Assembly: GCA_964610875.1 (NCBI GenBank)
Contig: CAZSWP010000016.1
Location: forward strand, 1 to 64,000
Direction: 5' to 3'
Source of the DNA: an uncultured archaeon
Lineage (GTDB): Archaea > Asgardarchaeota > Thorarchaeia > Thorarchaeales > Thorarchaeaceae
Length of the DNA: 64,000 bases
The notes under the pieces: generated by a model
Told to the model about the DNA's origin: nothing
The model's input: only the letters and a program-made list of their open reading frames with translations
Database searches by the model: none
Translations under genes and position numbers: made by a program
Shown: positions 22,030-36,012 of the stretch, in pieces
Layout: every line of letters starts with the position of its first letter
How positions within the stretch are numbered: the first letter of the stretch is position 1

Positions 22030-22878
22030 ATGGTGCTCAAGAGAACCCCTATCATTGTCATAACTATGTTTGCAGTGTTATTGTTATCTATCAATGGTGT
22101 AGCAGCACAGGAACCAGGTGGAGGTCCCTCTAGGTATTATTCCGAGGCAGGTGCATTCACATATAGGGCGTCATTTCAATTACAGGACGGTTCTGAAATC
22201 TTCCTCCTCCGTAGTGCGTATACTGCCACATTTTACTCCCAAATGCAGCCACCAACACGGCATCATTACTTCTCAGTTTCAGTAGGTTTCTATTATGGCA
22301 AGACCATGTTGAATCGCCCAATTATTCAAAATATCACTTTTGAATCACTATCATTCTATCCCAAATGGAAAAATAGTGCGGGATATAGTTTCAATCTGAT
22401 TGATGACAGTGCTATTTTCACAGTTAATGGTACTGTCAGAGATGGAGAACGTTTGGGAGGATTCATGCTTATTGATGATAACGCGCTCAGTCAATATCTT
22501 CCCATGATTGGTGGTACCTATGTATTCAAAGACCTTTCATTCCATCTAATTGATGGTACTGTCTTTACCCTAGGTGACATCTCAATTGAGTTAGAGAAGA
22601 ACAACAACAAGTGGCTCCCAGAGAATGCCATTATAACAGGCTCTGATGATGTCACGTATGAGAGTGATGATCAGTATGCATACATAAAGATGGATGCGAG
22701 TACCCCACTCATTGTATTTGTAGACTTAATTGTTGGGTCTGCTTTGATTGCTGCTTTCTCTATCATCGTCATTGCGCTTGTACTACACTTGAAGGGAATT
22801 ATCACACTACCAATAGAGCGAATACGGTCTGTTGTATCCACACAGGAACCGATTACAGCAAAGGGCAGGAATCCCTAA
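22030..22878 (+). CDS. Secreted protein with C-terminal membrane anchor
   Basis: Signal peptide ending VAA-Q; C-terminal TM helix. Confidence 0.75.
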   Translation: MVLKRTPIIVITMFAVLLLSINGVAAQEPGGGPSRYYSEAGAFTYRASFQLQDGSEIFLLRSAYTATFYSQMQPPTRHHYFSVSVGFYYGKTMLNRPIIQNITFESLSFYPKWKNSAGYSFNLIDDSAIFTVNGTVRDGERLGGFMLIDDNALSQYLPMIGGTYVFKDLSFHLIDGTVFTLGDISIELEKNNNKWLPENAIITGSDDVTYESDDQYAYIKMDASTPLIVFVDLIVGSALIAAFSIIVIALVLHLKGIITLPIERIRSVVSTQEPITAKGRNP

Positions 22879-22883
22879 TGTAA

Positions 22884-23129
22884 CTATTCAGGAATCTGAA
22901 TCCAGAGAATATTATTTCCTCTAAGAAGAATCTCGCCATATTTAGCTTTGATCTCGCTCTGGCCCTCATCAGTATAGTCAAGTTCTTCGGCATCACCAAG
23001 TGTTAAGTTCATATAAACATCGCAACGGGTGAGACGACCTCTGAAAATTCTTTGGTCTTTGAGTTTTATAGAAACAACGTTATTCAGATGCTGTTCTAAA
23101 GCCTTGATTGGCATCTTTTCTGCAGACAT
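22884..23129 (-). CDS. Sm-like (Lsm) protein
   Basis: GRLTRCDVYMNL and ILLRGNNI Sm motifs. Confidence 0.92.
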   Translation of the reverse strand: MSAEKMPIKALEQHLNNVVSIKLKDQRIFRGRLTRCDVYMNLTLGDAEELDYTDEGQSEIKAKYGEILLRGNNILWIQIPE

Positions 23130-23235
23130 AGAGGTTACCTCTTGATGTGCCCCTTGGTGTACATTATAAAGCCTTTGCCTAAGCATACAAATACTTGCCT
23201 AGAATCAAAATATGAACAGTCTGAGGTAAATACCA

Positions 23236-24240
23236 GTGACAAGAAAGGTATGTCTTGGGATAGAAGGAACAGCTCATTCATTTGGCGCAGGTGTTGTGAC
23301 CAGTGATGGTAAGGTTCTATCTAACGTTTGGGATATGCTTTCCCCAGAAGAAGGAGGTATCCACCCCAGAGAGGCAAGTAGACATCACTCAGACATTGGT
23401 CCTGACATAATTGGTAGGGCAATAGCAGATGCAAAAATAACATTCAATGATATAGATTTGGTAGCCTTCTCTCAAGGTCCTGGTCTTGGTCCCTGTCTTC
23501 GTACTACTGCTACTATGGCTCGAACACTAGCCCTCAGTCTAGATACTCCGCTTATAGGAGTCAATCATTGTGTTGCACACATCGAAATAGGTCGTCTGGA
23601 GTCCGAATTCTCTGATCCCGTCACAGTATATGTTTCCGGGGGGAATTCACAAATCATTGCATTTTCTGGAGGTAGATATCGGACTTTTGGAGAAACACTT
23701 GACATCGCCATCGGCAATATGCTCGATGTCTTTGGAAGACATGTTGGAATGCGGTTTCCCGCAGGCCCCGTAGTGGAACAAGAAGCAAAACGTAGCACAA
23801 CCTATCATGCACTCCCCTACTCAGTGAAAGGTATGGATCTGAGTTACTCGGGGATGCTTACTGCAGCAAAGAGACTGTTTGATGAAGGAGTCCCAATTCC
23901 TGAGATATGTTACAGCATACAAGAAACCGCTTTTGGTATGTTGGCAGAGGTTGCTGAGAGAGCAATAGCCCACACCAAGAAGGAACAACTCCTGCTGACT
24001 GGTGGGGTAGCGAGAAATAATCGACTACATGATATTCTCGATGGCGTCAGCAAAAGACATTCTGCGGTATTTCATAGAGTTTCTCCACCATTAGCTGGTG
24101 ACCAAGGTGCAATGATAGCATGGACTGGACTTGAGCAGTACCTTGGTGGCGACAGATTAGACATTGAAAACTCTCACGTACGGCCAAAATGGCGGACGGA
24201 TGAACAGGACATAATCTGGAGGGTAGATGATGCAGCGTGA
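23236..24240 (+). CDS. kae1: KEOPS t6A synthase Kae1
   Basis: LGIEGTAH, GIHPREA, NHCVAHIE, VSGG, DQGAMIA. Confidence 0.96.
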   Translation: MTRKVCLGIEGTAHSFGAGVVTSDGKVLSNVWDMLSPEEGGIHPREASRHHSDIGPDIIGRAIADAKITFNDIDLVAFSQGPGLGPCLRTTATMARTLALSLDTPLIGVNHCVAHIEIGRLESEFSDPVTVYVSGGNSQIIAFSGGRYRTFGETLDIAIGNMLDVFGRHVGMRFPAGPVVEQEAKRSTTYHALPYSVKGMDLSYSGMLTAAKRLFDEGVPIPEICYSIQETAFGMLAEVAERAIAHTKKEQLLLTGGVARNNRLHDILDGVSKRHSAVFHRVSPPLAGDQGAMIAWTGLEQYLGGDRLDIENSHVRPKWRTDEQDIIWRVDDAA

Positions 24241-24859
24241 GCTAATAACCCTTGGAGCAGAAGCAAAGATTGAGAAGGTAATTATCTGGGGTGAAGAATA
24301 TATCCAAAAAACTCGTCCTGAGAAACCATATCTCCTTCCTGCTATTGATATTATGTTACGTAAAAATCGTACCGGTCGTGAATGCAAAGTTCTATCCCTA
24401 GCTCGTTCCTTTGGCATTCCTACACCTGCAGTTCATTCAATTGACATGTCTAATTTCATCATCCTAATGGACTTTATAGATGGCAAACAATTGAAGGAGA
24501 TTGCTATAGAAGCTCCAATGTCTGAACTAGAGCTCCTCTGTAAGGAGTTTGGTTCTTCTCTAGCGCTTCTACACAAGGGTGATGTGGTCCATGGAGACCC
24601 AACTACGAGTAACATAATTGTACAAAGCAGCTCAAAACTATGGATGATTGATTTTGGACTTGCTGAGTTGAATGCAACAATTGAGATGAAGGGAGTAGAC
24701 CTTCACCTTGTAAAGCGCGCATTTGAAACCACTCATTGGAATAGGCAGGACAAAATGCTACAGATGACCATAGAAGGCTACGTATCAGTAATGAAAGATG
24801 ATGCTGAACCAATATTATATCGTATGGATGAGATACGGGAACGTGGTAGATATCACTAG
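24227..24859 (+). CDS. bud32: KEOPS kinase Bud32
   Basis: [21 protein letters not shown]. Confidence 0.95.
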
Positions 24860-24962
24860 ACTCTCTCAGTCTGCAGTCAGAAGGCAATCTTTATATCCAA
24901 TCTACTCGGCGATGGGCAGGACCCGAGTTCTTGGGACTCAGATTTATTCAGAGGTCAAACCG

Positions 24963-29343: not shown

Positions 29344-29988
29344 TCATTTCTTGGCTGAACCACGTCGTAGACGTGCTCTTCTCTCTTTGACTTCTTCTGG
29401 ACCTTTCAGGACCTTGCTCTTTCTAATCTCACACTCTCTAACTGGAATGATTTTCTTGACCTCTTCATGTACATCTGCTGCGAGGTCTCCCAGAACAACC
29501 TTCTGGACAAGCTCGTCAAATCCATATTTCTTAGCGTGGGACCTGATTACCTTCTCAATCGACTTTCGGATAGAGTGTTCTTGGCTGGTCTTAGCTCTAG
29601 TTCCTGTAAAAACAATAACAGAAATTCGCATGAGATAGTCATCTTTGGTAAGAATCGGACCAATCCAGTCAATTCTAGTAGTACCTCTTCGAACAAGTCC
29701 TCTAAGATAATCCGAGCTCCACTCGTGACCATAGAATGTGGTCTTTGCTTGTTGACCTTTAACATCAACAATCTTGAACTTCAGTTTGACATGAATCTTA
29801 TCAAAATCTCCTGTCAGATCATACAACGTTGGTTGAACAGTACGGCCTAACAATTGATCTGGGTCTGCAGCCGGAGTTTCTCCAATGTCTTTACTTTCAA
29901 AGTAATCCGGAGAGATGATCTGATACCACTTCTTTTCTCTCCACTTGTCACGTGTTCTGGCTGCTGCCTGTCTACTTCTTGAGGACAT
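29344..29988 (-). CDS. rps3ae: 30S ribosomal protein eS1 (S3Ae)
   Basis: DKWREKKWY, GRTVQ.TL.DLTGD, DYLRGLVRRGTTRID. Confidence 0.96.
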   Translation of the reverse strand: MSSRSRQAAARTRDKWREKKWYQIISPDYFESKDIGETPAADPDQLLGRTVQPTLYDLTGDFDKIHVKLKFKIVDVKGQQAKTTFYGHEWSSDYLRGLVRRGTTRIDWIGPILTKDDYLMRISVIVFTGTRAKTSQEHSIRKSIEKVIRSHAKKYGFDELVQKVVLGDLAADVHEEVKKIIPVRECEIRKSKVLKGPEEVKERRARLRRGSAKK

Positions 29989-30236
29989 TTGACTATCACA
30001 CTCGTATTTGACACAATTCTTGTGTCTCGAGAATTGCAAATTGTGCCAACTGAGCTGTTGGCGCCTCGCCGACATCTAGTGAGATGAATAAAAACATTTG
30101 CCAAGAGGCGAAGCCACGACTCATCCCACTATAATCTCTCTTTTAATGGTCTTGACCATGTTGTTACAACTATCTGGTTATCATCACAACAAACTAGATA
30201 TTCACTACCCTATGGGTAATACTAGGTCGAGTAAAC

Positions 30237-30374
30237 ATGAGTAATGTTGTCTGTCCGAAATGCGGCTATGAAGATGTAGGACTTGTAAAGAAGCAAATCA
30301 TAGCTCCTGGCAAATTCCATAGGAACTGGCGCTGTCCAAGATGTAGCCATACTTGGGATACAAAAGACGAATGA
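30237..30374 (+). CDS. 45-aa zinc-ribbon microprotein
   Basis: Not in ORF track; MSNVVCPKCGY...WRCPRCSHTW. Confidence 0.75.
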   Translation: MSNVVCPKCGYEDVGLVKKQIIAPGKFHRNWRCPRCSHTWDTKDE

Positions 30375-30426
30375 ACTCCACGCCAAAACTGTTAAAATCA
30401 GATCGTCGTGGGATACTTCACGCTAC

Positions 30427-30514
30427 GCGGAGGTTGCCAAGCCAGGTCAACGGCGCAGGACTTAGGATCCTGTTCAGTAGTGATTCGCGAGTTCGAATCT
30501 CGCCCTCCGCACCA
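30427..30514 (+). tRNA. tRNA-Leu(TAG)
   Basis: GCGGAGG/CCTCCGC acceptor, CAGGA-CTTAGGA-TCCTG anticodon arm, long variable region, CCA. Confidence 0.95.
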
Positions 30515-30867
30515 TAATTTCTTTTCATCAATCTCTTCTATTATGGTTCATTATCTTACCTCGTATGAGTTGAAAGATCAAGTCTATTTTTCCCAAAGAA
30601 TCTGCAATTGGTAAATCGTAGAATGGCATTACTTTTGAAGAGAGGACATCATGGATAAGACATCCATACCATCAAGGTTGACTACTCACTGGATTACTTT
30701 GTACAGAGGACGAATTCAATATGTACTTCGTAATTTCCACCTATTTTGCTGAGTATATCAAATAGATGTTTGATATTCAATTTCGCTTCTAAATCATAAA
30801 TATTGGAATAAAACCGATATAAAATAAATAGCTAATATTCTCTCTTAATAGTTAATATACTAATTAT

Positions 30868-32742
30868 CCTGACAAATGTACGAGTTCAAAACCTCTCTTG
30901 CAGACAAGAAGGGGAGTGAACTCAACTGACTCAAGAAACGGGTCAGAAATTAATATACTATAGGCGAAAAGATAATGGCTCGGTCCAAGGGTGTGACAAT
31001 CGCGGTGAAGGTCCCAATCAAGTGGGAAGTCATGACCGTGAGGACTAAGCAGCGTCTCAGACAGACCGTTGGAAGAGACACCAGAATCATTCATGCATAT
31101 CTAGGGATAATCGAACAGCATGAGGACGAATTGCTAACAGGCAAAGATAGGACCAGAGTTGATGATAGTAAACTAGACCGACTGACCATGACCGCGCTCA
31201 AAGTGAAGAAAGGCAACGAACAACGAACCTCAGTCCCTCATGATTTCAAGGATAGATTCCCACGAGCCTCTCCTAATGAGATTGGTGAGTGTCGGAAGAC
31301 TGCTGTTGCATTATATGAGATCTATCTGAAGTTGGATGACAAGAAAGGACATTCAGCCTCGCGTCCGACATCCATGAAAAAGTCAGGTCGAATTCCTCGA
31401 TGGGTCTTCTCTCAAAGGTTCAAGATAGTTGAAAAGCAGACATGTGTGACTCGATGGTGGCTTGACCTCAGGGACTCGTTTGATTCGGCATTAGAAGATC
31501 GTGCTCAACATGACCGCGTACTCATCCCCTTAAAGATGGCTCCCTTTCATCTGAACCAGATTCAAAGAGGTGAGGTGAAAGCATTGCAGGTCTTCACTGA
31601 TAGAACGGGGAAATGGTGGGTGACATTTGCTGTCCGATTACCTTCCTGTGAAGAAGATGAAAATGATCTTCCAGTTGCTATCTTAGGTATAGACCTGGGC
31701 ATAGAGAAGGCTGCTTGCTCGACACTCCTCACTCCTGAGAAGACAAGAGAGAGCCGGTTCTTTGTCCAGAAGGAGAAGGTTAAGCGGATTAAAAGATACG
31801 ACAGGCTTGTTGCTGCTCTCCAGAGAGAGATGGACACTCGCCGAAATGACGGGAAACAATGCGATAAGATAGCCAAGAATCTCCGCGATATCCGCTATAG
31901 ACGTAGGAATATAGCCAGAGAATATGACCGTGTCCTGATTCGTCATATCCTTGATTATATCTCGGAACTCTCCGAGAGGTATACACTCTATGTAGCCGTT
32001 GGTCGCCTGAAGAATATACGAGTGCGTGCAAGACGCGGTAACTACCGTGGTAGAAAGTTTCGAGGGATATTACACTCGTGGGCATTCCACCGAGTGACGG
32101 ATGGTATCAAACACGGACTTGCACAGATGGGCTGGAAGGTCGATGGAAAAGACCCTCGTTTTCGAGCTGTTCCTGAAGCATGGACCTCTATCATCTGTTG
32201 GAAGTGTGGTGCTAAAGGCAAGCGGCCCAAGCAAAACTACTTCTATTGTCCATCCTGTGGGTACAAGACCAATGCTGATAAGAATGGTAGTATTAACATT
32301 ACAGCACGCATGCTTACGCTCACAAAGTCACTGCACTCTGTGAGAGGACTAGGTCTGTGGACTAGAGCTCTGGATAGAGTTCGACGTGCGCGTCCGAAAG
32401 CCCGAAGGAAGAAGCCTTCACGAGGGAAGTCCTTATTCTCCAAGAAACGAACTTCATCAGGTTCCGGAGAGTCCGCAGCCGTTCACCATGCTCAGACGAG
32501 CCTCACCAGCTTCAGTGATGATGCTGGGGTGGGTGATGATGACCCTGCTGTGGGAAGAACTGTGGAAACGCTCTCTGTCGCTGAGAGTGATGACTCGGCA
32601 AAAAGACAGGAGAAAGAAGTCCGGTCTGTGGGAGGGATACCATCCCGATGATGCCAGACAATGCTCTTGCTGATTGCAAATTCTCATGGCGTTTGCAAAG
32701 TGGTGACACTGGCAGGCGAGGGACGGAACACAGAAGTTTCAA
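30868..32742 (+). mobile_element. Non-autonomous IS200/IS605-family (tnpB-only) element
   Basis: Left hairpin GAGTTCA..TGAACTC (30882-30923) after TTAT; right end ...GTTTCAA; GC-richer than flanks; ends are inferred. Confidence 0.7.
30975..32651 (+). CDS. tnpB: TnpB RNA-guided endonuclease
   Basis: LGIDLG, VAVGRL, VPEAWTS, CWKC/CPSC zinc finger, NADKNGSINI. Confidence 0.92.
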   Translation: MARSKGVTIAVKVPIKWEVMTVRTKQRLRQTVGRDTRIIHAYLGIIEQHEDELLTGKDRTRVDDSKLDRLTMTALKVKKGNEQRTSVPHDFKDRFPRASPNEIGECRKTAVALYEIYLKLDDKKGHSASRPTSMKKSGRIPRWVFSQRFKIVEKQTCVTRWWLDLRDSFDSALEDRAQHDRVLIPLKMAPFHLNQIQRGEVKALQVFTDRTGKWWVTFAVRLPSCEEDENDLPVAILGIDLGIEKAACSTLLTPEKTRESRFFVQKEKVKRIKRYDRLVAALQREMDTRRNDGKQCDKIAKNLRDIRYRRRNIAREYDRVLIRHILDYISELSERYTLYVAVGRLKNIRVRARRGNYRGRKFRGILHSWAFHRVTDGIKHGLAQMGWKVDGKDPRFRAVPEAWTSIICWKCGAKGKRPKQNYFYCPSCGYKTNADKNGSINITARMLTLTKSLHSVRGLGLWTRALDRVRRARPKARRKKPSRGKSLFSKKRTSSGSGESAAVHHAQTSLTSFSDDAGVGDDDPAVGRTVETLSVAESDDSAKRQEKEVRSVGGIPSR

Positions 32743-32925
32743 TCTGTTGTGGTTCGCTCACAATATTCATGAAGAAACAGATCATCTAAACCTTGCGCCT
32801 TTGACGTTTTGTACTTATTTCAAAGCAATAGTTGTTATGTTTAAACAAATAATAGAAACATTGAATATAATATTAAGGCTCTTTTTTCTGTTAGTTGGTA
32901 GAAAGGCAATCGAAGAGGTAGCACT

Positions 32926-33456
32926 ATGCAACGAATAGACATCTCATTATTTCCTCAAAGAGGGAGTAATGACTGTCTAATTGCTTGTGTTATGATGATT
33001 TTAGAATGGGCAAAAGCCAACTACCCTGAAGTTGCTTCTTACAGTTACGATGCACTTGTAAAAATTCTTGGAATGACCGCAACAGGAACCAAGTTTTGTG
33101 ATGTGACTAATCTTAACAAAGATCGTCGAAACAAAGAATGCAAAGTTCAACTCGAATTCGGATGTGCTCCAACTTCTCTTCATTTTGTTATAGAACAAAT
33201 ACAACAAGGACTACCAGTCATTGTTTATCTTCTTCAGGAGCATTATGATAATAAAGTTCAACATGCTGTAGTTGTCAATTTCATATCGACAGATAAAACG
33301 AAAATTGGGATATTGGACCCCTTAAGGCCCAAACCGATAAACAAATCAACAGGGGCATTCTTAGAAGAGTGGGAACAGTTGCTTAAATATACAATTTATG
33401 TAAAAATAAATGAGATTGAAGACTTAACATTATATTTAGGAGATGACTCAGAATGA
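32926..33456 (+). CDS. C39-like cysteine peptidase
   Basis: Q...NDCLIAC, QHAVVV, ILDP (Cys-His-Asp). Confidence 0.8.
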   Translation: MQRIDISLFPQRGSNDCLIACVMMILEWAKANYPEVASYSYDALVKILGMTATGTKFCDVTNLNKDRRNKECKVQLEFGCAPTSLHFVIEQIQQGLPVIVYLLQEHYDNKVQHAVVVNFISTDKTKIGILDPLRPKPINKSTGAFLEEWEQLLKYTIYVKINEIEDLTLYLGDDSE

Positions 33457-34394
33457 ATATACAGGAAGACATAGTCAGTTATCTTATTCAAAACTATGGG
33501 CATTTAGTTCTTAGTGACAGTCCTGAGTACAATGAAGAGTTAGAACTATGGATTTCAAAACTACACTCTGATTATCCTATTCTCATACAGGATGACAAGA
33601 AAGGGAAAAAAGAAATACACTTTATCAAAATTCATTCATTAGGATATATTGTTTTTAATAGCCAGAAGCAAATCGTGAGAGATAAGACGACTTCAGATGA
33701 GCAAGTTGTGTTAAGAATTGAAACATATCTTGATATGTGGAGAACATATGCAGAAAATATCGTTGTTTCAGCCTCAGCAGAAAGAATAGCAAAATTGAGT
33801 GAAGTATCTAATGTATTGAATCCAATTTATGAGATAATCACATTCGTATCAGATAGCAATTTCATCAGCCTGTTTCATTTTGAAAAGGAACGTACTGATA
33901 AAAGAAGAAAGGCGAAACAATATCTAGCAATGCTTGAAGATTTAAAACTACTCAGAAGACATGATAATGGATACGTACCAGGAAATCTTTTCGTTGCTCT
34001 GAAAGAGCAAACAGATGCATATGATCAATTCATGGAGAGCATTTATGCAACTATTCTAAAACATAGATATTCGTTCTTACGAAATGTTCTAAATTTGAGT
34101 AATTTAGAAACCGTCATACGAATTGCTAACATTGTATACTATCCAGAATTACATACGAGAGAGTCTGTTCCTAGAGATAGGAAAACTCTCGTAAGAGAAT
34201 ATACACTAGAATATCGACTTGAAATCACTGAACCTCGTATGAGTGGCTATCTGAAAAAACTTGAGGAATTAGATGTCATACGTATCGAGTCAGGGTTCTA
34301 CCAAGGTAATGATGAACTCCGTACAAAGATGTTTGATATCCAAAAAAGCATTGAATCTCCCGAATCATTGTGGTCTGTTCCCATTCCTGTTTGA
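33453..34394 (+). CDS. Hypothetical protein with probable winged-helix domains
   Basis: ATGA overlap with the peptidase gene; YLAMLEDLKLL and YLKKLEELDVI wHTH-like segments. Confidence 0.7.
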   Translation: MNIQEDIVSYLIQNYGHLVLSDSPEYNEELELWISKLHSDYPILIQDDKKGKKEIHFIKIHSLGYIVFNSQKQIVRDKTTSDEQVVLRIETYLDMWRTYAENIVVSASAERIAKLSEVSNVLNPIYEIITFVSDSNFISLFHFEKERTDKRRKAKQYLAMLEDLKLLRRHDNGYVPGNLFVALKEQTDAYDQFMESIYATILKHRYSFLRNVLNLSNLETVIRIANIVYYPELHTRESVPRDRKTLVREYTLEYRLEITEPRMSGYLKKLEELDVIRIESGFYQGNDELRTKMFDIQKSIESPESLWSVPIPV

Positions 34395-34439
34395 GAAAGA
34401 AAATAAGGTAATATTTTTGAAACCTATAATTACAATGAA

Positions 34440-34475
34440 TAGTGATTCGCGAGTTCGAATCTCGCCCTCCGCACC
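34440..34475 (+). repeat. attR: duplicated 3' end of tRNA-Leu
   Basis: TAGTGATTCGCGAGTTCGAATCTCGCCCTCCGCACC exact copy. Confidence 0.95.
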
Positions 34476-34535
34476 GTTGCTATTGTTTTTCCAGTCTTCG
34501 TTCGATTTATCTTCTTGATTAGCATATAGAAACCT

Positions 34536-35009
34536 ATGTCAGAATCAGGATATCTCGATAAATTGAAGCAATATCTCAGTTTTCTGTTCACAAAATACGA
34601 GTATAAAATCACATTTCATGAAGACTCGATGAATTTTGGTAATAAGTATACACTTCTTGAGTCTGATGATTTGATTATTGCGGTAACAAGAGATAGAGAT
34701 CTCATCTCTCTTGACGTTCGTAACAATGATGGTGAGGAGGTGCCAAGGGACAAACACTATCGATATTTCTTTGACCTGCTAATCATTTTGAGGTCATTGG
34801 GTGCTCCTGAAGAAAAGAAAATTGAGTTAATGACAGATACAACTGATGAAGGGCAGCTAAGTGCGTTATCTGCAGCCCTAGAAACCTACTACAAGCAGAT
34901 TCATGACATGTTCAGTCCAGAGAAGGTTGAAACAACCAAGAAGGAGCTCAGGCGCCTTGAAATGTCGCAAGTTGAAGAGATCTTTGGGCTAGATGATAAT
35001 GATAGCTAA
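34536..35009 (+). CDS. Hypothetical acidic protein
   Basis: Clean ORF; no motif recognised. Confidence 0.65.
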   Translation: MSESGYLDKLKQYLSFLFTKYEYKITFHEDSMNFGNKYTLLESDDLIIAVTRDRDLISLDVRNNDGEEVPRDKHYRYFFDLLIILRSLGAPEEKKIELMTDTTDEGQLSALSAALETYYKQIHDMFSPEKVETTKKELRRLEMSQVEEIFGLDDNDS

Positions 35010-35079
35010 TTCTCATTGATGTGAACATCGATACTGTTATCTCTCCCAGAGATATGTTATAGGCAACTCAACAGAAAGA

Positions 35080-35430
35080 GTGTCGATTATGAAGTATCTA
35101 TTTCTAGCAACAAACGACAACAAAATGCATCTCTATCATCTTCTCCTGAATGCCAACAATTTCCATGAGAATGGTCACGAGGTAGCAGTCATTCTAGAAT
35201 GCGCATCACCAAAGCTACTGATTGGTATTGCTAATGGTTCAATTAAGCTCCCGGTCTTTGACAAATCTATGGAGCTGGGAATCATAGACTCAGCATGCAA
35301 AGCCTGTACAGCCGCATTTGAAGCCACTGATGCCGCAAAACAGCTTGGGGTTCTTCTCAAAGGTGAACTCAGTGGACATAGCGACTTACTGAGGTTCGCT
35401 GCAGATGGTTTCACGATAGTGACTTTCTAG
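35080..35430 (+). CDS. DsrE-like protein
   Basis: HLLLNA, ACKAC, GHSDL...GFTIVTF. Confidence 0.7.
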   Translation: MSIMKYLFLATNDNKMHLYHLLLNANNFHENGHEVAVILECASPKLLIGIANGSIKLPVFDKSMELGIIDSACKACTAAFEATDAAKQLGVLLKGELSGHSDLLRFAADGFTIVTF

Positions 35431-35505
35431 TTTCATCTAGACAATACATATTGCGCCAAGCACGTGTCTTTATAGAAGTCACTAGGTCTATAAAAGCGAT
35501 AAATA

Positions 35506-36012
35506 ATGCTCTCGAAGACAAATATTCTCTCAATCGTTCTGATAATCTTGGGACTTCTATCAGCTGTTCTAGTGAACGGAATAAACAATTCTGAAGTTGT
35601 AGTTCCAGGCTATTCCGTTGGATATGACCTAGCAATCTACGGGGAATACGCATTTGTTTCAAACAATGATGATGCAGCTGTCATTGATATTAGTAATCCA
35701 GGCAGTCCAATTCGTATGAATCAGATTCAACTGGATGGTGCTTTTGGATTGAAAATTGTTAATGATACACTATATGTTGGCAGTCCAAATGATGGACTAG
35801 TTCTAATAGATATCACCACACCCTCGAACCCAGTGATTCTTGAGACGCACCCACTCGTGAATAATGTATATGATCTCCTTGTCGCTGGGAATTTTGTTTA
35901 TGCAGTAAGTACTCCTTCACAAATGTGGCTCTGGGTAATCCTTATCTCTCTTCTCTCAGTAGGAATGGTCATTTTCTTCATACCGTGTCTCAGGAAAAGA
36001 ATAAGTAATTGA
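35506..36012 (+). CDS. Short membrane-anchored LVIVD-repeat protein, possibly internally deleted
   Basis: VIDISNPGSP and LIDITTPSNP repeats; TM segment at both ends. Confidence 0.7.
   Translation: MLSKTNILSIVLIILGLLSAVLVNGINNSEVVVPGYSVGYDLAIYGEYAFVSNNDDAAVIDISNPGSPIRMNQIQLDGAFGLKIVNDTLYVGSPNDGLVLIDITTPSNPVILETHPLVNNVYDLLVAGNFVYAVSTPSQMWLWVILISLLSVGMVIFFIPCLRKRISN

What the first reader, a model, noticed from the sequence alone, without database searches (positions are those of the whole stretch)
30975..32651. TnpB with a Fanzor-type rearranged RuvC catalytic site
Seen: RuvC-I Asp (31692) and RuvC-III Asp (32277) are intact. The canonical RuvC-II Glu position has Gly (VAVGRL, 32001), and a Glu appears 58 residues later in VPEAWTS (32175), where canonical TnpBs usually have Pro. 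Established: this Gly plus downstream Glu arrangement is described for Fanzors and a subset of TnpBs. At 558 aa the protein is large. Inference: an active RNA-guided nuclease with a TAM near TTAT and a guide starting TCTGTTGTGGTTCGCTC. Worth placing relative to Fanzor origins given the probable Asgard host, although the rearrangement may be convergent.
Basis: partly seen in the sequence, partly recalled or inferred. Interest (0 to 1): 0.7.

Follow-up and report, generated by a model that had tools for sequence, protein, structure and literature searches.

The report
Asgard TnpB with relocated catalytic glutamate
This is an intact, selection-maintained RNA-guided TnpB nuclease gene of a Thorarchaeota genome. 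Its catalytic glutamate sits in the alternative position that is already known from many TnpBs and from Fanzors.

Summary
ORF 30975-32651 encodes a 558-aa TnpB with D240, Gly343 at the canonical RuvC-II position, Glu401 six residues before the zinc finger, and D435.

The arrangement is not new. It is the published Ealt / TnpB2 / RIIr class. Fifty-six of 59 of the nearest cluster representatives share it.

The protein has D-L-G in RuvC-I, not the D-P-G that marks Fanzors and pro-Fanzors. Its nearest solved relatives are Cas12f and TnpB, not Fanzor. An Asgard link to Fanzor origins is therefore not supported.

The gene is under purifying selection (dN/dS about 0.1-0.2) and is followed by a covariation-supported structured RNA.

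The element actually ends at 32784/5. The TAM could not be determined.

The family is multicopy across Thorarchaeota. It is usually paired head-to-head with a ~1,800-aa protein whose N-terminus folds like Cas1, which probably corresponds to the published aCas1-TnpB group. The window copy is a solo one inside a tRNA-Leu island.

Two features are unexplained:
- a left-end block that is complementary to the right end, with compensatory changes;
- locus-specific 13-15-bp promoter-like direct repeats.

The parts
30427..30514 (+). tRNA-Leu gene. Its last 36 nt (30478-30513) are repeated at 34440-34475.
   Evidence: ARAGORN, Rfam tRNA, perfect 36-nt direct repeat.
30852..30862 (+). DR1: a TATA-box-like direct repeat (TTAATATACTA) just outside the left boundary of the TnpB unit. 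It is identical to DR2.
   Evidence: Within-locus DR1/DR2 identity averages 12.3 nt, against 6.7 nt between loci. Alignment.
30865..30947 (+). Left-end block. The conserved TACGAG is at 30879-30884. It is followed by a hairpin, GAGTGAACTCAACTG (30915-30929), and then the CTGAC...GTCAG hairpin. The block contains an inverted copy of the right end.
   Evidence: Conserved in 31 or more loci. Homology to solo copies starts 12-17 nt before TACGAG. Complementarity to the right end with compensatory changes.
30950..30960 (+). DR2: a second copy of the TATA-box-like repeat, 14 nt upstream of the tnpB ATG. It is the probable promoter of a leaderless tnpB mRNA (inference).
   Evidence: The promoter role is inferred from spacing only.
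30975..32651 (+). tnpB ORF, 558 aa. Key codons: D240 (31692-4), G343 (32001-3), E401 (32175-7), C408/C411/C425/C428 zinc finger, D435 (32277-9). The tail 491-558 is disordered.
32325..32742 (+). Candidate omega-RNA scaffold. It overlaps the last ~108 codons and continues about 90 nt past the stop codon (32649-51).
   Evidence: Synonymous third-position diversity falls from 0.52-0.62 to 0.25-0.28 from codon ~451 on. The consensus structure has 31 pairs, 22 of them with compensatory changes. No Rfam family matches.
32743..32785 (+). Conserved right end. CTGTTGTGGTTCGCTC (32744-59) is complementary to the left-end block and carries the GTTCACTCA-type motif. It is followed by a short variable stretch and then AAGAAACAGATCA(T), which is the terminus.
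   Evidence: The motif is the same as the one described downstream of Asgard aCas1-linked tnpB genes (PMC10691335).
32786..32805 (+). First flanking bases (CTAAACCTTGCGCC...). This is where a guide would start under the canonical TnpB model (inference).
   Evidence: The sequence is unique in the genome. It is shared only with the copy at the same tRNA-Leu site in another genus, L038.
32926..34394 (+). Other cargo of the tRNA-Leu island: a C39-like peptidase ORF (32926-33456) and a 313-aa ORF with no family match.
   Evidence: Pfam PF03412 at E 1.3e-8; no hit for the second ORF.
34440..34475 (+). Right copy of the 36-nt tRNA-Leu 3' end (att-like repeat). It closes the 3.96-kb island that holds the TnpB unit.
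   Evidence: The same arrangement, with a 30-nt repeat, occurs in L038 from another genus.

Best explanation
The ORF encodes a functional RNA-guided DNA endonuclease of the TnpB family. It belongs to the already described class in which the RuvC-II glutamate has moved from its canonical strand (here Gly343) to a position six residues before the zinc finger (Glu401). The catalytic triad is D240-E401-D435.

The gene is the core of a ~1.92-kb unit (about 30865-32785) with four parts:
- a conserved left-end block;
- a TATA-like promoter;
- tnpB;
- a long structured 3' RNA that overlaps the last ~108 codons and runs to a sharply defined right end.

By analogy with characterised TnpBs, the RNA scaffold binds the protein and a 3' guide directs cleavage next to a TAM. 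The guide is most likely read from the DNA just beyond 32785. This step is inferred, not shown.

The unit belongs to a multicopy Thorarchaeota family. That family normally sits head-to-head with a ~1,800-aa protein whose N-terminus has a Cas1-like fold. This is probably the published aCas1-linked Asgard TnpB group, in which aCas1 is the presumed integrase. The window copy is a solo derivative carried in a small island bounded by tRNA-Leu repeats. It is old and is not recently mobile.
For: Identity and catalytic layout.

Match to the published D{P}G...E-x6-CxxC...CxxC...D expression from D240 to D435: with PMC10711439.

The Gly-for-Glu substitution with a compensating Glu is described, and the alternative Glu was shown to be needed for cleavage, in PMC10691335 and PMC10530073.

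Fold: AlphaFold2 mean pLDDT 81.7 and pTM 0.74. The best structural matches are Cas12f and TnpB ternary complexes.

Selection: dN/dS is 0.096 against the copy at the same tRNA-Leu site, and 0.11-0.23 for nine other pairs.

RNA: 31 conserved pairs, 22 with compensatory changes. Synonymous diversity halves from codon ~451.

Ends.

Family spread: 41 of 61 genomes of the order, with up to 14 matches per genome.

Partner protein: more than 55 head-to-head pairs, read by hand. Cas1 and casposase structures match model residues 12-266 at Z 9.5-13.3.

The GTTCACTCA motif downstream of aCas1-linked Asgard tnpB genes is in PMC10691335.
Against: No activity, RNA or cleavage data exist for this family.

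The tools return no model coordinates, so the distance of E401 from D240 and D435 was not measured.

The closest in-genome paralog is only 73% identical. Copies sit at the same tRNA-linked sites in different genera. This is what one would see for an immobile, possibly exapted gene.

A stretch of about 40 nt after the paired scaffold is conserved and unpaired, instead of being followed at once by variable flank. The guide position is therefore uncertain.

Sequence-level tests did not detect Cas1 in the partner protein. The Cas1 assignment rests on fold, and for a helical domain.
Confidence: 0.75

Rival explanations
1. The protein belongs to, or lies near the root of, the lineage that gave rise to eukaryotic Fanzors. 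In this reading the shared Gly plus downstream-Glu site reflects common descent through an Asgard host.
For: It has the same Ealt position, six residues before the first CxxC, as Fanzors (PMC10711439). The host is an Asgard archaeon. Mimivirus Fanzor2 is a clear structural match (rank 22, E 7e-11).
Against: RuvC-I is D-L-G, not the D-P-G that defines the Fanzor/pro-Fanzor clade. None of 180 fetched homologs has DPG with Ealt. The family profile is far closer to Cas12f (4e-38), which keeps the canonical Glu, than to Fanzor2 (1.6e-16). Fanzor1 (SpuFz1) does not appear at E <= 0.01. The published phylogeny derives Fanzors from cyanobacterial IS607 TnpBs. The rearrangement occurs in several TnpB branches. 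No phylogeny with Fanzor sequences was run here.
Confidence: 0.03
2. The gene is a domesticated, non-transposing TnpB that works with the Cas1-like giant protein in a host or defence function. Alternatively it works alone as an RNA-guided regulator. In either case it is not a transposon homing nuclease.
For: No near-identical copies exist in the genome. Copies are kept at the same tRNA-Leu and tRNA-Gly sites across genera. Purifying selection is strong. Head-to-head pairing with the giant protein persists across wide divergence of both proteins. Archaeal TnpBs in general show little recent mobility (PMC10691335).
Against: The catalytic triad is invariant, unlike nuclease-dead repressor TnpBs. 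The family reaches 14-19 copies per genome. In genome G016, TnpB units are 77-87% identical over about 1.9 kb with sharp ends, while most of the neighbouring giant genes do not align at DNA level. This suggests that the unit moves or is exchanged.
Confidence: 0.15
3. The guide RNA is made of two parts. A short RNA read from the left-end block pairs with the conserved 3' segment (GTTTC..CAGTTG.GGTTCACTC) in the way a tracrRNA anti-repeat pairs with a repeat. The left-end block is an inverted copy of the right end that the Cas1-like partner inserted into the tnpB promoter. That insertion produced the 13-15-bp duplication.
For: Left-right complementarity: 310 of 337 cells are paired, 10 cells changed on both sides with the pair kept, and only 1 of 2000 partner shuffles reaches the observed value. 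There are 18 G.U-type against 4 A.C-type mismatches on the sense strand. The 3' segment is left unpaired in the cis consensus fold. A TATA-like box lies 15-17 nt before the block. The repeats have the size of casposase target duplications, 14-15 bp (PMC6977970). The partner has a Cas1-like fold. The nearest solved relatives are tracrRNA-using Cas12f enzymes.
Against: Inverted repeats at the two ends of a transposon give the same complementarity and the same co-variation without any RNA role. No RNA data are available. Related sequences inflate the shuffle test. The duplication flanks only the ~85-nt block, not the unit, and solo copies lack DR1. No spacer-like hypervariable segment was found.
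Confidence: 0.1

Closest known systems
RuvC-II-rearranged TnpBs: 'TnpB2', e.g. Thermoplasma volcanium TvTnpB (PMC10530073); 'RIIr' branches such as RIIr-5 (PMC10691335); the Ealt / D-Phi-G clade (PMC10711439)
   Same: Gly replaces the canonical RuvC-II Glu. A conserved Glu lies six residues before the zinc finger. RuvC-I is D-Phi-G. The domain order is the same. A 3' non-coding RNA is present.
   Different: The protein is larger (558 aa) and has a disordered ~110-aa tail that overlaps the RNA gene. No Y1 or serine TnpA is present. The element ends carry an inverted repeat. Which RIIr branch it belongs to was not determined.
Asgard aCas1-associated TnpB groups (Cas1H-Asgard-1/2; PMC10691335)
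   Same: The host is an Asgard archaeon. A GTTCACTCA-type motif lies downstream of tnpB. Most family members sit next to a large protein whose N-terminus has a Cas1 fold.
   Different: The window copy has no Cas1-like neighbour. The segment upstream of the motif is only moderately variable here, and it co-varies with a left-end block that the paper's main text does not mention. Identity of the two families is inferred from the shared motif and the fold, not from shared accessions.
Fanzor1/Fanzor2 and cyanobacterial pro-Fanzors
   Same: The catalytic Glu is in the alternative position. The overall fold is TnpB-like (Fanzor2 9b0l, TM 0.50/0.59).
   Different: RuvC-I is DLG, not DPG. There is no IS607 serine recombinase. 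The sequence is much closer to Cas12f than to Fanzor2.
Cas12f (type V-F), e.g. AsCas12f (8j12) and OsCas12f (9nzq)
   Same: These are the best sequence and structure matches among solved proteins (profile E 4e-38; Foldseek E 9e-17, TM 0.50/0.64).
   Different: Cas12f keeps the canonical Glu, which aligns with G343. It is linked to CRISPR arrays and uses a tracrRNA. No CRISPR array lies next to this gene.
ISDra2 TnpB / IS200-IS605 OMEGA system
   Same: An RNA-guided RuvC nuclease whose guide RNA is encoded at the 3' end of the gene and overlaps it.
   Different: ISDra2 has the canonical Glu, about 400 aa, a Y1 TnpA partner and ends without the inverted repeat seen here. Similarity is weak (profile E 6e-10).

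Membership tests
TnpB (RNA-guided endonuclease superfamily) | RuvC-like split nuclease domain with a D..E..D triad and a C4 zinc finger between RuvC-II and RuvC-III | tested here: met
   PF07282 at 44.4 bits, above the 26.3 cut-off. D240, E401, D435, C408, C411 and C425 are invariant; C428 is present in at least 90%. NCBIfam guided_TnpB scores 82 bits, below its 100-bit cut-off.
TnpB (RNA-guided endonuclease superfamily) | TnpB/Cas12f fold (WED, REC, RuvC, TNB) | tested here: met
   The AF2 model has pLDDT 81.7. Foldseek top hits are Cas12f and TnpB ternary complexes at E 1e-16 to 1e-10.
TnpB (RNA-guided endonuclease superfamily) | Conserved structured RNA (omega/reRNA) at the 3' end, overlapping the ORF | tested here: met
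   31 pairs, 22 with compensatory changes. Synonymous-site constraint from codon ~451 on. Expression was not tested.
TnpB (RNA-guided endonuclease superfamily) | TAM-dependent RNA-guided DNA cleavage | not testable with these tools
   This needs biochemistry.
Ealt / RuvC-II-rearranged TnpB class (TnpB2, RIIr) | Non-acidic residue at the canonical RuvC-II Glu position | tested here: met
   G343 aligns with the Glu of AsCas12f. Gly occurs in 56 of 59 nearest representatives.
Ealt / RuvC-II-rearranged TnpB class (TnpB2, RIIr) | Conserved Glu six residues upstream of the first CxxC | tested here: met
   E401-x6-C408. The published regular expression matches from residue 240 to 435.
Ealt / RuvC-II-rearranged TnpB class (TnpB2, RIIr) | The alternative Glu reaches the active site | not testable with these tools
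   Model coordinates are not returned. This was shown for other members in PMC10530073 and PMC10691335.
Fanzor / pro-Fanzor lineage | DPG motif in RuvC-I together with Ealt (PMC10711439) | tested here: not met
   The motif is D240-L-G. The DPG expression does not match this protein or any of 180 fetched homologs.
Fanzor / pro-Fanzor lineage | Association with an IS607 serine recombinase or a eukaryotic transposase | tested here: not met
   No such gene lies beside this copy. No recombinase-like cluster recurs among the flanks of 39 loci. The only recurrent neighbour is the ~1,800-aa protein.
Fanzor / pro-Fanzor lineage | Phylogenetic placement within the Fanzor clade | not tested
   No Fanzor sequences could be brought into a tree. 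Indirect evidence: profile E is 1.6e-16 to Fanzor2 against 4e-38 to Cas12f.
IS200/IS605 element | Y1 TnpA in the element or elsewhere in the family | tested here: inconclusive
   None was seen next to 39 family loci. The genome was not searched with a Y1 model.
Cas1H-Asgard (aCas1-linked) TnpB group | GTTCACTCA motif downstream of tnpB | tested here: met
   The window has GTTCGCTCA at 32751-32759. The consensus across loci is GTTCACTCA. The motif is quoted from PMC10691335.
Cas1H-Asgard (aCas1-linked) TnpB group | Adjacent Cas1-homolog gene | tested here: not met
   This holds for the window copy, which has no such gene on its contig. For the family as a whole the feature is met. There are more than 55 head-to-head pairs. 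The partner's residues 12-266 match Cas1/casposase at Z 9.5-13.3. Sequence tests for Cas1 were negative.
Cas12f (type V-F CRISPR effector) | Adjacent CRISPR array | tested here: not met
   No array-like repeat family was found in 29500-36000.

The most novel reading that the evidence does not exclude
The family records a Cas1-driven step from a transposon guide RNA towards a two-part, CRISPR-like guide. In this reading the Cas1-like partner has inserted an inverted copy of the element's own right end into the tnpB promoter and duplicated 13-15 bp of target, as casposases do. The RNA read from that insert pairs with the repeat-like 3' end of the omega-RNA, as a tracrRNA anti-repeat does. Re-insertion over time would keep both the duplication and the complementarity locus-specific.
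Probability: 0.08. Interest if true: 0.85.

Novelty: new member of a known kind. Interest (0 to 1): 0.4.

Why it matters
The relocated glutamate itself is textbook by now. The value here is negative: an Asgard host does not bring this TnpB closer to Fanzors.

The family around it is more useful. It is a widespread Thorarchaeota module that joins an apparently active Ealt TnpB, a very long structured guide-RNA gene and a giant Cas1-fold protein. Its ends show RNA-type covariation across 1.8 kb and casposase-sized duplications.

If these features reflect mechanism, the family would be a natural system for asking how Cas1 integrases and TnpB nucleases first came to work together.

It is also a candidate compact nuclease of the class reported to lack collateral cleavage.

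Tried and rejected
There are therefore no transcript data.

(2) I searched for a locus-specific match between the variable left-end parts (DR1, DR2, spacers) and the 3' RNA or its flank, in either orientation. Own-locus matches (mean 6.3 nt) were no longer than between-locus matches (6.4 nt). A self-targeting guide for the repeats is rejected.

(3) I looked for target-site duplications flanking the whole unit by eye in solo copies (window, L038, L080). None was found.

(4) I looked for terminal repeats enclosing both the giant gene and tnpB in L066. None was found.

(5) Cas1 in the giant protein by sequence: hhalign against the genome's own Cas1 gave probability 0.3. Pfam at E <= 10 gave nothing relevant. 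NCBIfam, Pfam on the first ~1,250 residues, and the ESM Atlas also gave nothing. Only the fold search found Cas1.

(6) Rfam has no family for the 3' RNA. There is only a sub-threshold C/D-box hit, 17.6 bits against a 39-bit cut-off.

(7) The collection scans returned few loci: 9 from genomes and 5 from metagenomes. Most loci came from the genome search.

(8) A first anchored count of left-right pairs mis-anchored several loci and was discarded. It was redone on the alignments.

(9) A bulge-helix-bulge splicing motif in the left-right duplex was considered. The bulges (1 nt and about 3 nt, 7 bp apart) do not fit the 3-4-3 pattern. This was judged by inspection only.

(10) The sigma-70 promoter and intrinsic-terminator scan is not relevant to an archaeon and was not used.
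Full report
**Observation**

The window has an uninterrupted ORF at 30975-32651 (+) of 558 aa.
- D240 at nt 31692;
- G343 at 32001, in VAVGRL;
- E401 at 32175, in VPEAWTS;
- D435 at 32277.

The protein matches the Cas12f1-like TNB domain above Pfam's cut-off. It also matches NCBIfam's guided_TnpB, Cas12f2 and IS607_TnpB models, all below their cut-offs. HMMER alignments to solved Cas12f chains put G343 on the canonical RuvC-II glutamate. They leave VPEAW as an insertion just before the conserved TS..C..CG zinc-finger start.

**Is it more than chance?**

The same genome holds six further full-length paralogs (44-73% identity) plus fragments. All of them keep Asp / Gly / downstream Glu / Asp.

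More than 500 homologs were found, the closest at about 70-75% identity. Those that carry a name come from Candidatus Thorarchaeota MAGs.

An exhaustive HMMER search of 1.84 billion cluster representatives found 1047 relatives. Among the 60 nearest long ones:
- 56 of 59 have Gly at the canonical site;
- 58 of 59 have Glu at the alternative site;
- the one canonical-Glu homolog lacks the alternative Glu.

In a 55-sequence alignment D240, E401, D435 and three zinc-finger cysteines are invariant, and G343 is present in at least 90%.

**What is known about this arrangement**

The arrangement is published in three papers.
- Altae-Tran et al. describe two major clades and eight large branches with an altered RuvC-II. 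In the largest of these (RIIr-5) glycine replaces the glutamate and an alternative glutamate compensates. Some branches are nearly restricted to archaea (PMC10691335).
- Jiang et al. call such proteins TnpB2. They showed that TvTnpB cleaves with an NTGAC TAM, that the alternative Glu of a Fanzor is essential, and that these enzymes lack collateral activity (PMC10530073).
- Yoon et al. define Ealt as a Glu six residues before the zinc finger. They split Ealt proteins into a D-Phi-G clade and a DPG clade. Only the DPG clade contains Fanzors and the cyanobacterial IS607 'pro-Fanzors' from which Fanzors are derived (PMC10711439).

Their regular expression for D{P}G...E-x6-CxxC-x12-18-CxxC-x4-8-D matches this protein exactly from D240 to D435. 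The DPG version does not match. Of 180 fetched homologs of at least 350 aa, 152 match the non-DPG expression (148 of them DLG) and none matches the DPG one.

**Relation to Fanzors**

The AlphaFold2 model is confident for residues 4-490 (mean pLDDT 81.7, pTM 0.74). Residues 491-558 are disordered.

| Comparison | Cas12f | Other TnpB | Fanzor |
|---|---|---|---|
| Foldseek rank | AsCas12f and OsCas12f first (E about 1e-16) | ISFba1 TnpB rank 11; ISDra2 TnpB rank 23 | Mimivirus Fanzor2 rank 22 |
| Family profile against PDB sequences | AsCas12f 4e-38 | ISDra2 TnpB 6e-10 | Fanzor2 1.6e-16; Fanzor1 not found at E <= 0.01 |

The family is therefore nearer to proteins with a canonical glutamate than to Fanzors. 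Together with the missing DPG motif, this argues against the hoped-for link to Fanzor origins. I could not build a tree with Fanzor sequences.

**Is it functional?**

dN/dS is 0.096 against the copy at the same tRNA-Leu site in another genus. It is 0.11-0.23 for nine other orthologous or paralogous pairs.

From codon ~451 onward, synonymous third-position diversity falls from 0.52-0.62 to 0.25-0.28, while amino-acid diversity does not fall. The long disordered tail is therefore largely the protein-coding shadow of an overlapping RNA gene. This explains the large size.

Downstream of the stop codon, RNAalifold on 32 loci gives 31 pairs, 22 of them with compensatory changes. Rfam has no matching family.

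**Ends and guide**

DNA homology between the window and about 20 other loci runs from 30817-30879 to 32761-32782. Alignments of about 35 loci show the following right end:
- the scaffold;
- GGAACACAGAAGTTTC;
- a moderately variable ~11 nt;
- GGTTCACTCAC;
- 3-12 variable nt;
- AAGAAAYRGGTYA;
- unrelated sequence.

Seven paralogs of one genome (G016), 77-87% identical and with unrelated flanks, all end at ...TAGGTTAT. This corresponds to window 32784/5.

Under the canonical model a guide would start at about 32786 (CTAAACCTTGCGCC...). That sequence is unique in the genome.

The left boundary lies 12-17 nt before a near-invariant TACGAG (window 30879). This is judged from copies in other contexts. 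I could not define a TAM.

**Context**

The unit lies in a 3.96-kb island bounded by a perfect 36-nt repeat of the tRNA-Leu 3' end. The island also holds a C39-like peptidase ORF and an unassigned ORF, and it has no integrase.

A copy in another genus (L038) sits in the same tRNA-Leu context with a 30-nt repeat and shares the first ~19 nt of right flank. Three other copies from different genera abut the same tRNA-Gly(TCC).

The copies are old and mostly fixed in place.

**The usual partner**

In 25 of 39 loci a large ORF lies upstream of tnpB on the other strand. It is about 1,850 aa (P0121), is annotated only as hypothetical, and has no Pfam or NCBIfam match. It occurs almost only in Thorarchaeota.

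I compared the coordinates by hand. This gave more than 55 head-to-head pairs, covering TnpBs from 44% to 100% identity to the query. The window's genome has such pairs on three other contigs (C78, C3 and C37). Contig C18 holds two more copies of the large gene, one of them next to a distant 735-aa TnpB-like ORF. The window's own contig has none.

The first 1000 residues of the partner fold with pLDDT 77.
- An all-against-all structural search matches residues 12-266 to the catalytic domain of Cas1 and casposases. There are at least ten separate entries, at Z 9.5-13.3.
- The same search matches residues ~690-940 to RecA/KaiC-type ATPases.
- Invariant D494, near-invariant E516 and invariant K518 look like a PD-(D/E)xK motif (inference).
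- Sequence-level tests for Cas1 were negative.

PMC10691335 reports Asgard Cas1 homologs next to TnpB, with a conserved GTTCACTCA downstream of tnpB. This family therefore most likely is that group.

**Unexplained anatomy**

(a) *Left-right complementarity.* The left-end block contains GAGTGAACTCAACTG..CAAGAAAC, which is the reverse complement of the right-end GTTTCTTG.CAGTTG.GGTTCACTC. Over 15 positions in 23 distinct loci:
- 310 of 337 cells pair;
- 10 cells changed on both sides with the pair kept;
- G.U-type mismatches outnumber A.C-type 18 to 4 on the sense strand;
- only 1 of 2000 partner shuffles reaches the observed pairing.

This fits either terminal inverted repeats or RNA-RNA pairing between a 5' leader or small RNA and the 3' end of the omega-RNA. 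Relatedness of the loci inflates the shuffle test.

(b) *Promoter-like direct repeats.* A 13-15-nt TATA-like sequence occurs twice in each locus, once just left of the block and once between the block and the ATG.
- The two copies agree within a locus (mean 12.3 nt) but differ between loci (mean 6.7 nt), even between orthologous loci.
- Four solo copies (L038, L059, L060, L080) lack the outer repeat.
- The repeat has the size of casposase target duplications (14-15 bp; PMC6977970). However, it flanks only the ~85-nt block, not the whole unit.
- It is not matched by any 3'-encoded sequence.

(c) *A paralog without either feature.* One paralog (L003) lacks both the left block and the GTTCACTCA segment. 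The two features therefore come and go together.

**Verdict**

The sequence observation is correct and the protein is very probably an active Ealt-type TnpB. This is a new member of a known kind. The Fanzor-origin angle is not supported, and the proposed guide is wrong. The interesting residue is the family's Cas1-linked architecture and its end structure, which I could describe but not explain.

Noticed in passing
L066:8465-14038 (-) (G022:C37). Own genome: C18:61277-66568, C18:17410-22317, C78:3536-7774.: A ~1,600-1,900-aa Thorarchaeota/Lokiarchaeota protein family with no Pfam or NCBIfam match sits head-to-head with this TnpB family in more than 55 places. Residues 12-266 have a Cas1/casposase-like fold (Z up to 13.3). 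Residues ~690-940 have a RecA/KaiC-like fold. D494, E516 and K518 form a PD-(D/E)xK-like motif. The C-terminal ~850 aa were not examined.
   Followed up: partly
window 30852-30862 and 30950-30960; all family loci: Two copies of a 13-15-nt TATA-box-like sequence flank the left-end block. They are identical within a locus and differ between loci, including orthologous loci. This implies concerted change. The mechanism is unknown.
   Followed up: partly
window 30915-30939 versus 32735-32759: The left-end block is the reverse complement of the conserved 3' end of the RNA region. There are compensatory changes and an excess of G.U over A.C mismatches on the sense strand.
   Followed up: partly
L051, L055, L064 (tRNA-Gly TCC); L024 (tRNA-Arg); window and L038 (tRNA-Leu): Six of about 37 family copies lie at or within tens of bases of the 3' end of a tRNA gene. 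Three of them are at the same tRNA-Gly in different genera.
   Followed up: partly
L003 (G000:C12:84514-85926): This paralog (53% identity, 496-aa frame) lacks both the left-end block and the GTTCACTCA segment, but it keeps the terminal TGTAAGA..GTTA motif. It may represent an ancestral or reduced form.
   Followed up: no
L080:6095-6553 (G016:C230): An inverted ~460-nt partial copy of the tnpB 3' end plus the right end lies about 2.9 kb upstream of a solo TnpB unit.
   Followed up: no
L012 (G000:C18:~22700-24900): A 735-aa TnpB-like ORF with an N-terminal extension is also paired head-to-head with a giant Cas1-fold gene. It is about 31% identical to the query over the RuvC/zinc-finger part. 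The representative P0153 of similar length has the Gly/Ealt layout.
   Followed up: no
L038:1203-1321: The tRNA-Leu gene of the related genome carries about 30 extra nucleotides relative to the window's gene, and ARAGORN does not call it. This may be an intron at a non-canonical position.
   Followed up: no
window 32532-32586: There is a sub-threshold Rfam hit to a C/D-box sRNA (sR28, 17.6 bits against a 39-bit cut-off, E 0.14) inside the RNA-constrained tail of tnpB.
   Followed up: no
window 32926-34394: A C39-like peptidase ORF (PF03412, E 1.3e-8) overlaps by ATGA with a 313-aa ORF that has no family match. These are the only other genes of the tRNA-Leu island.
   Followed up: no
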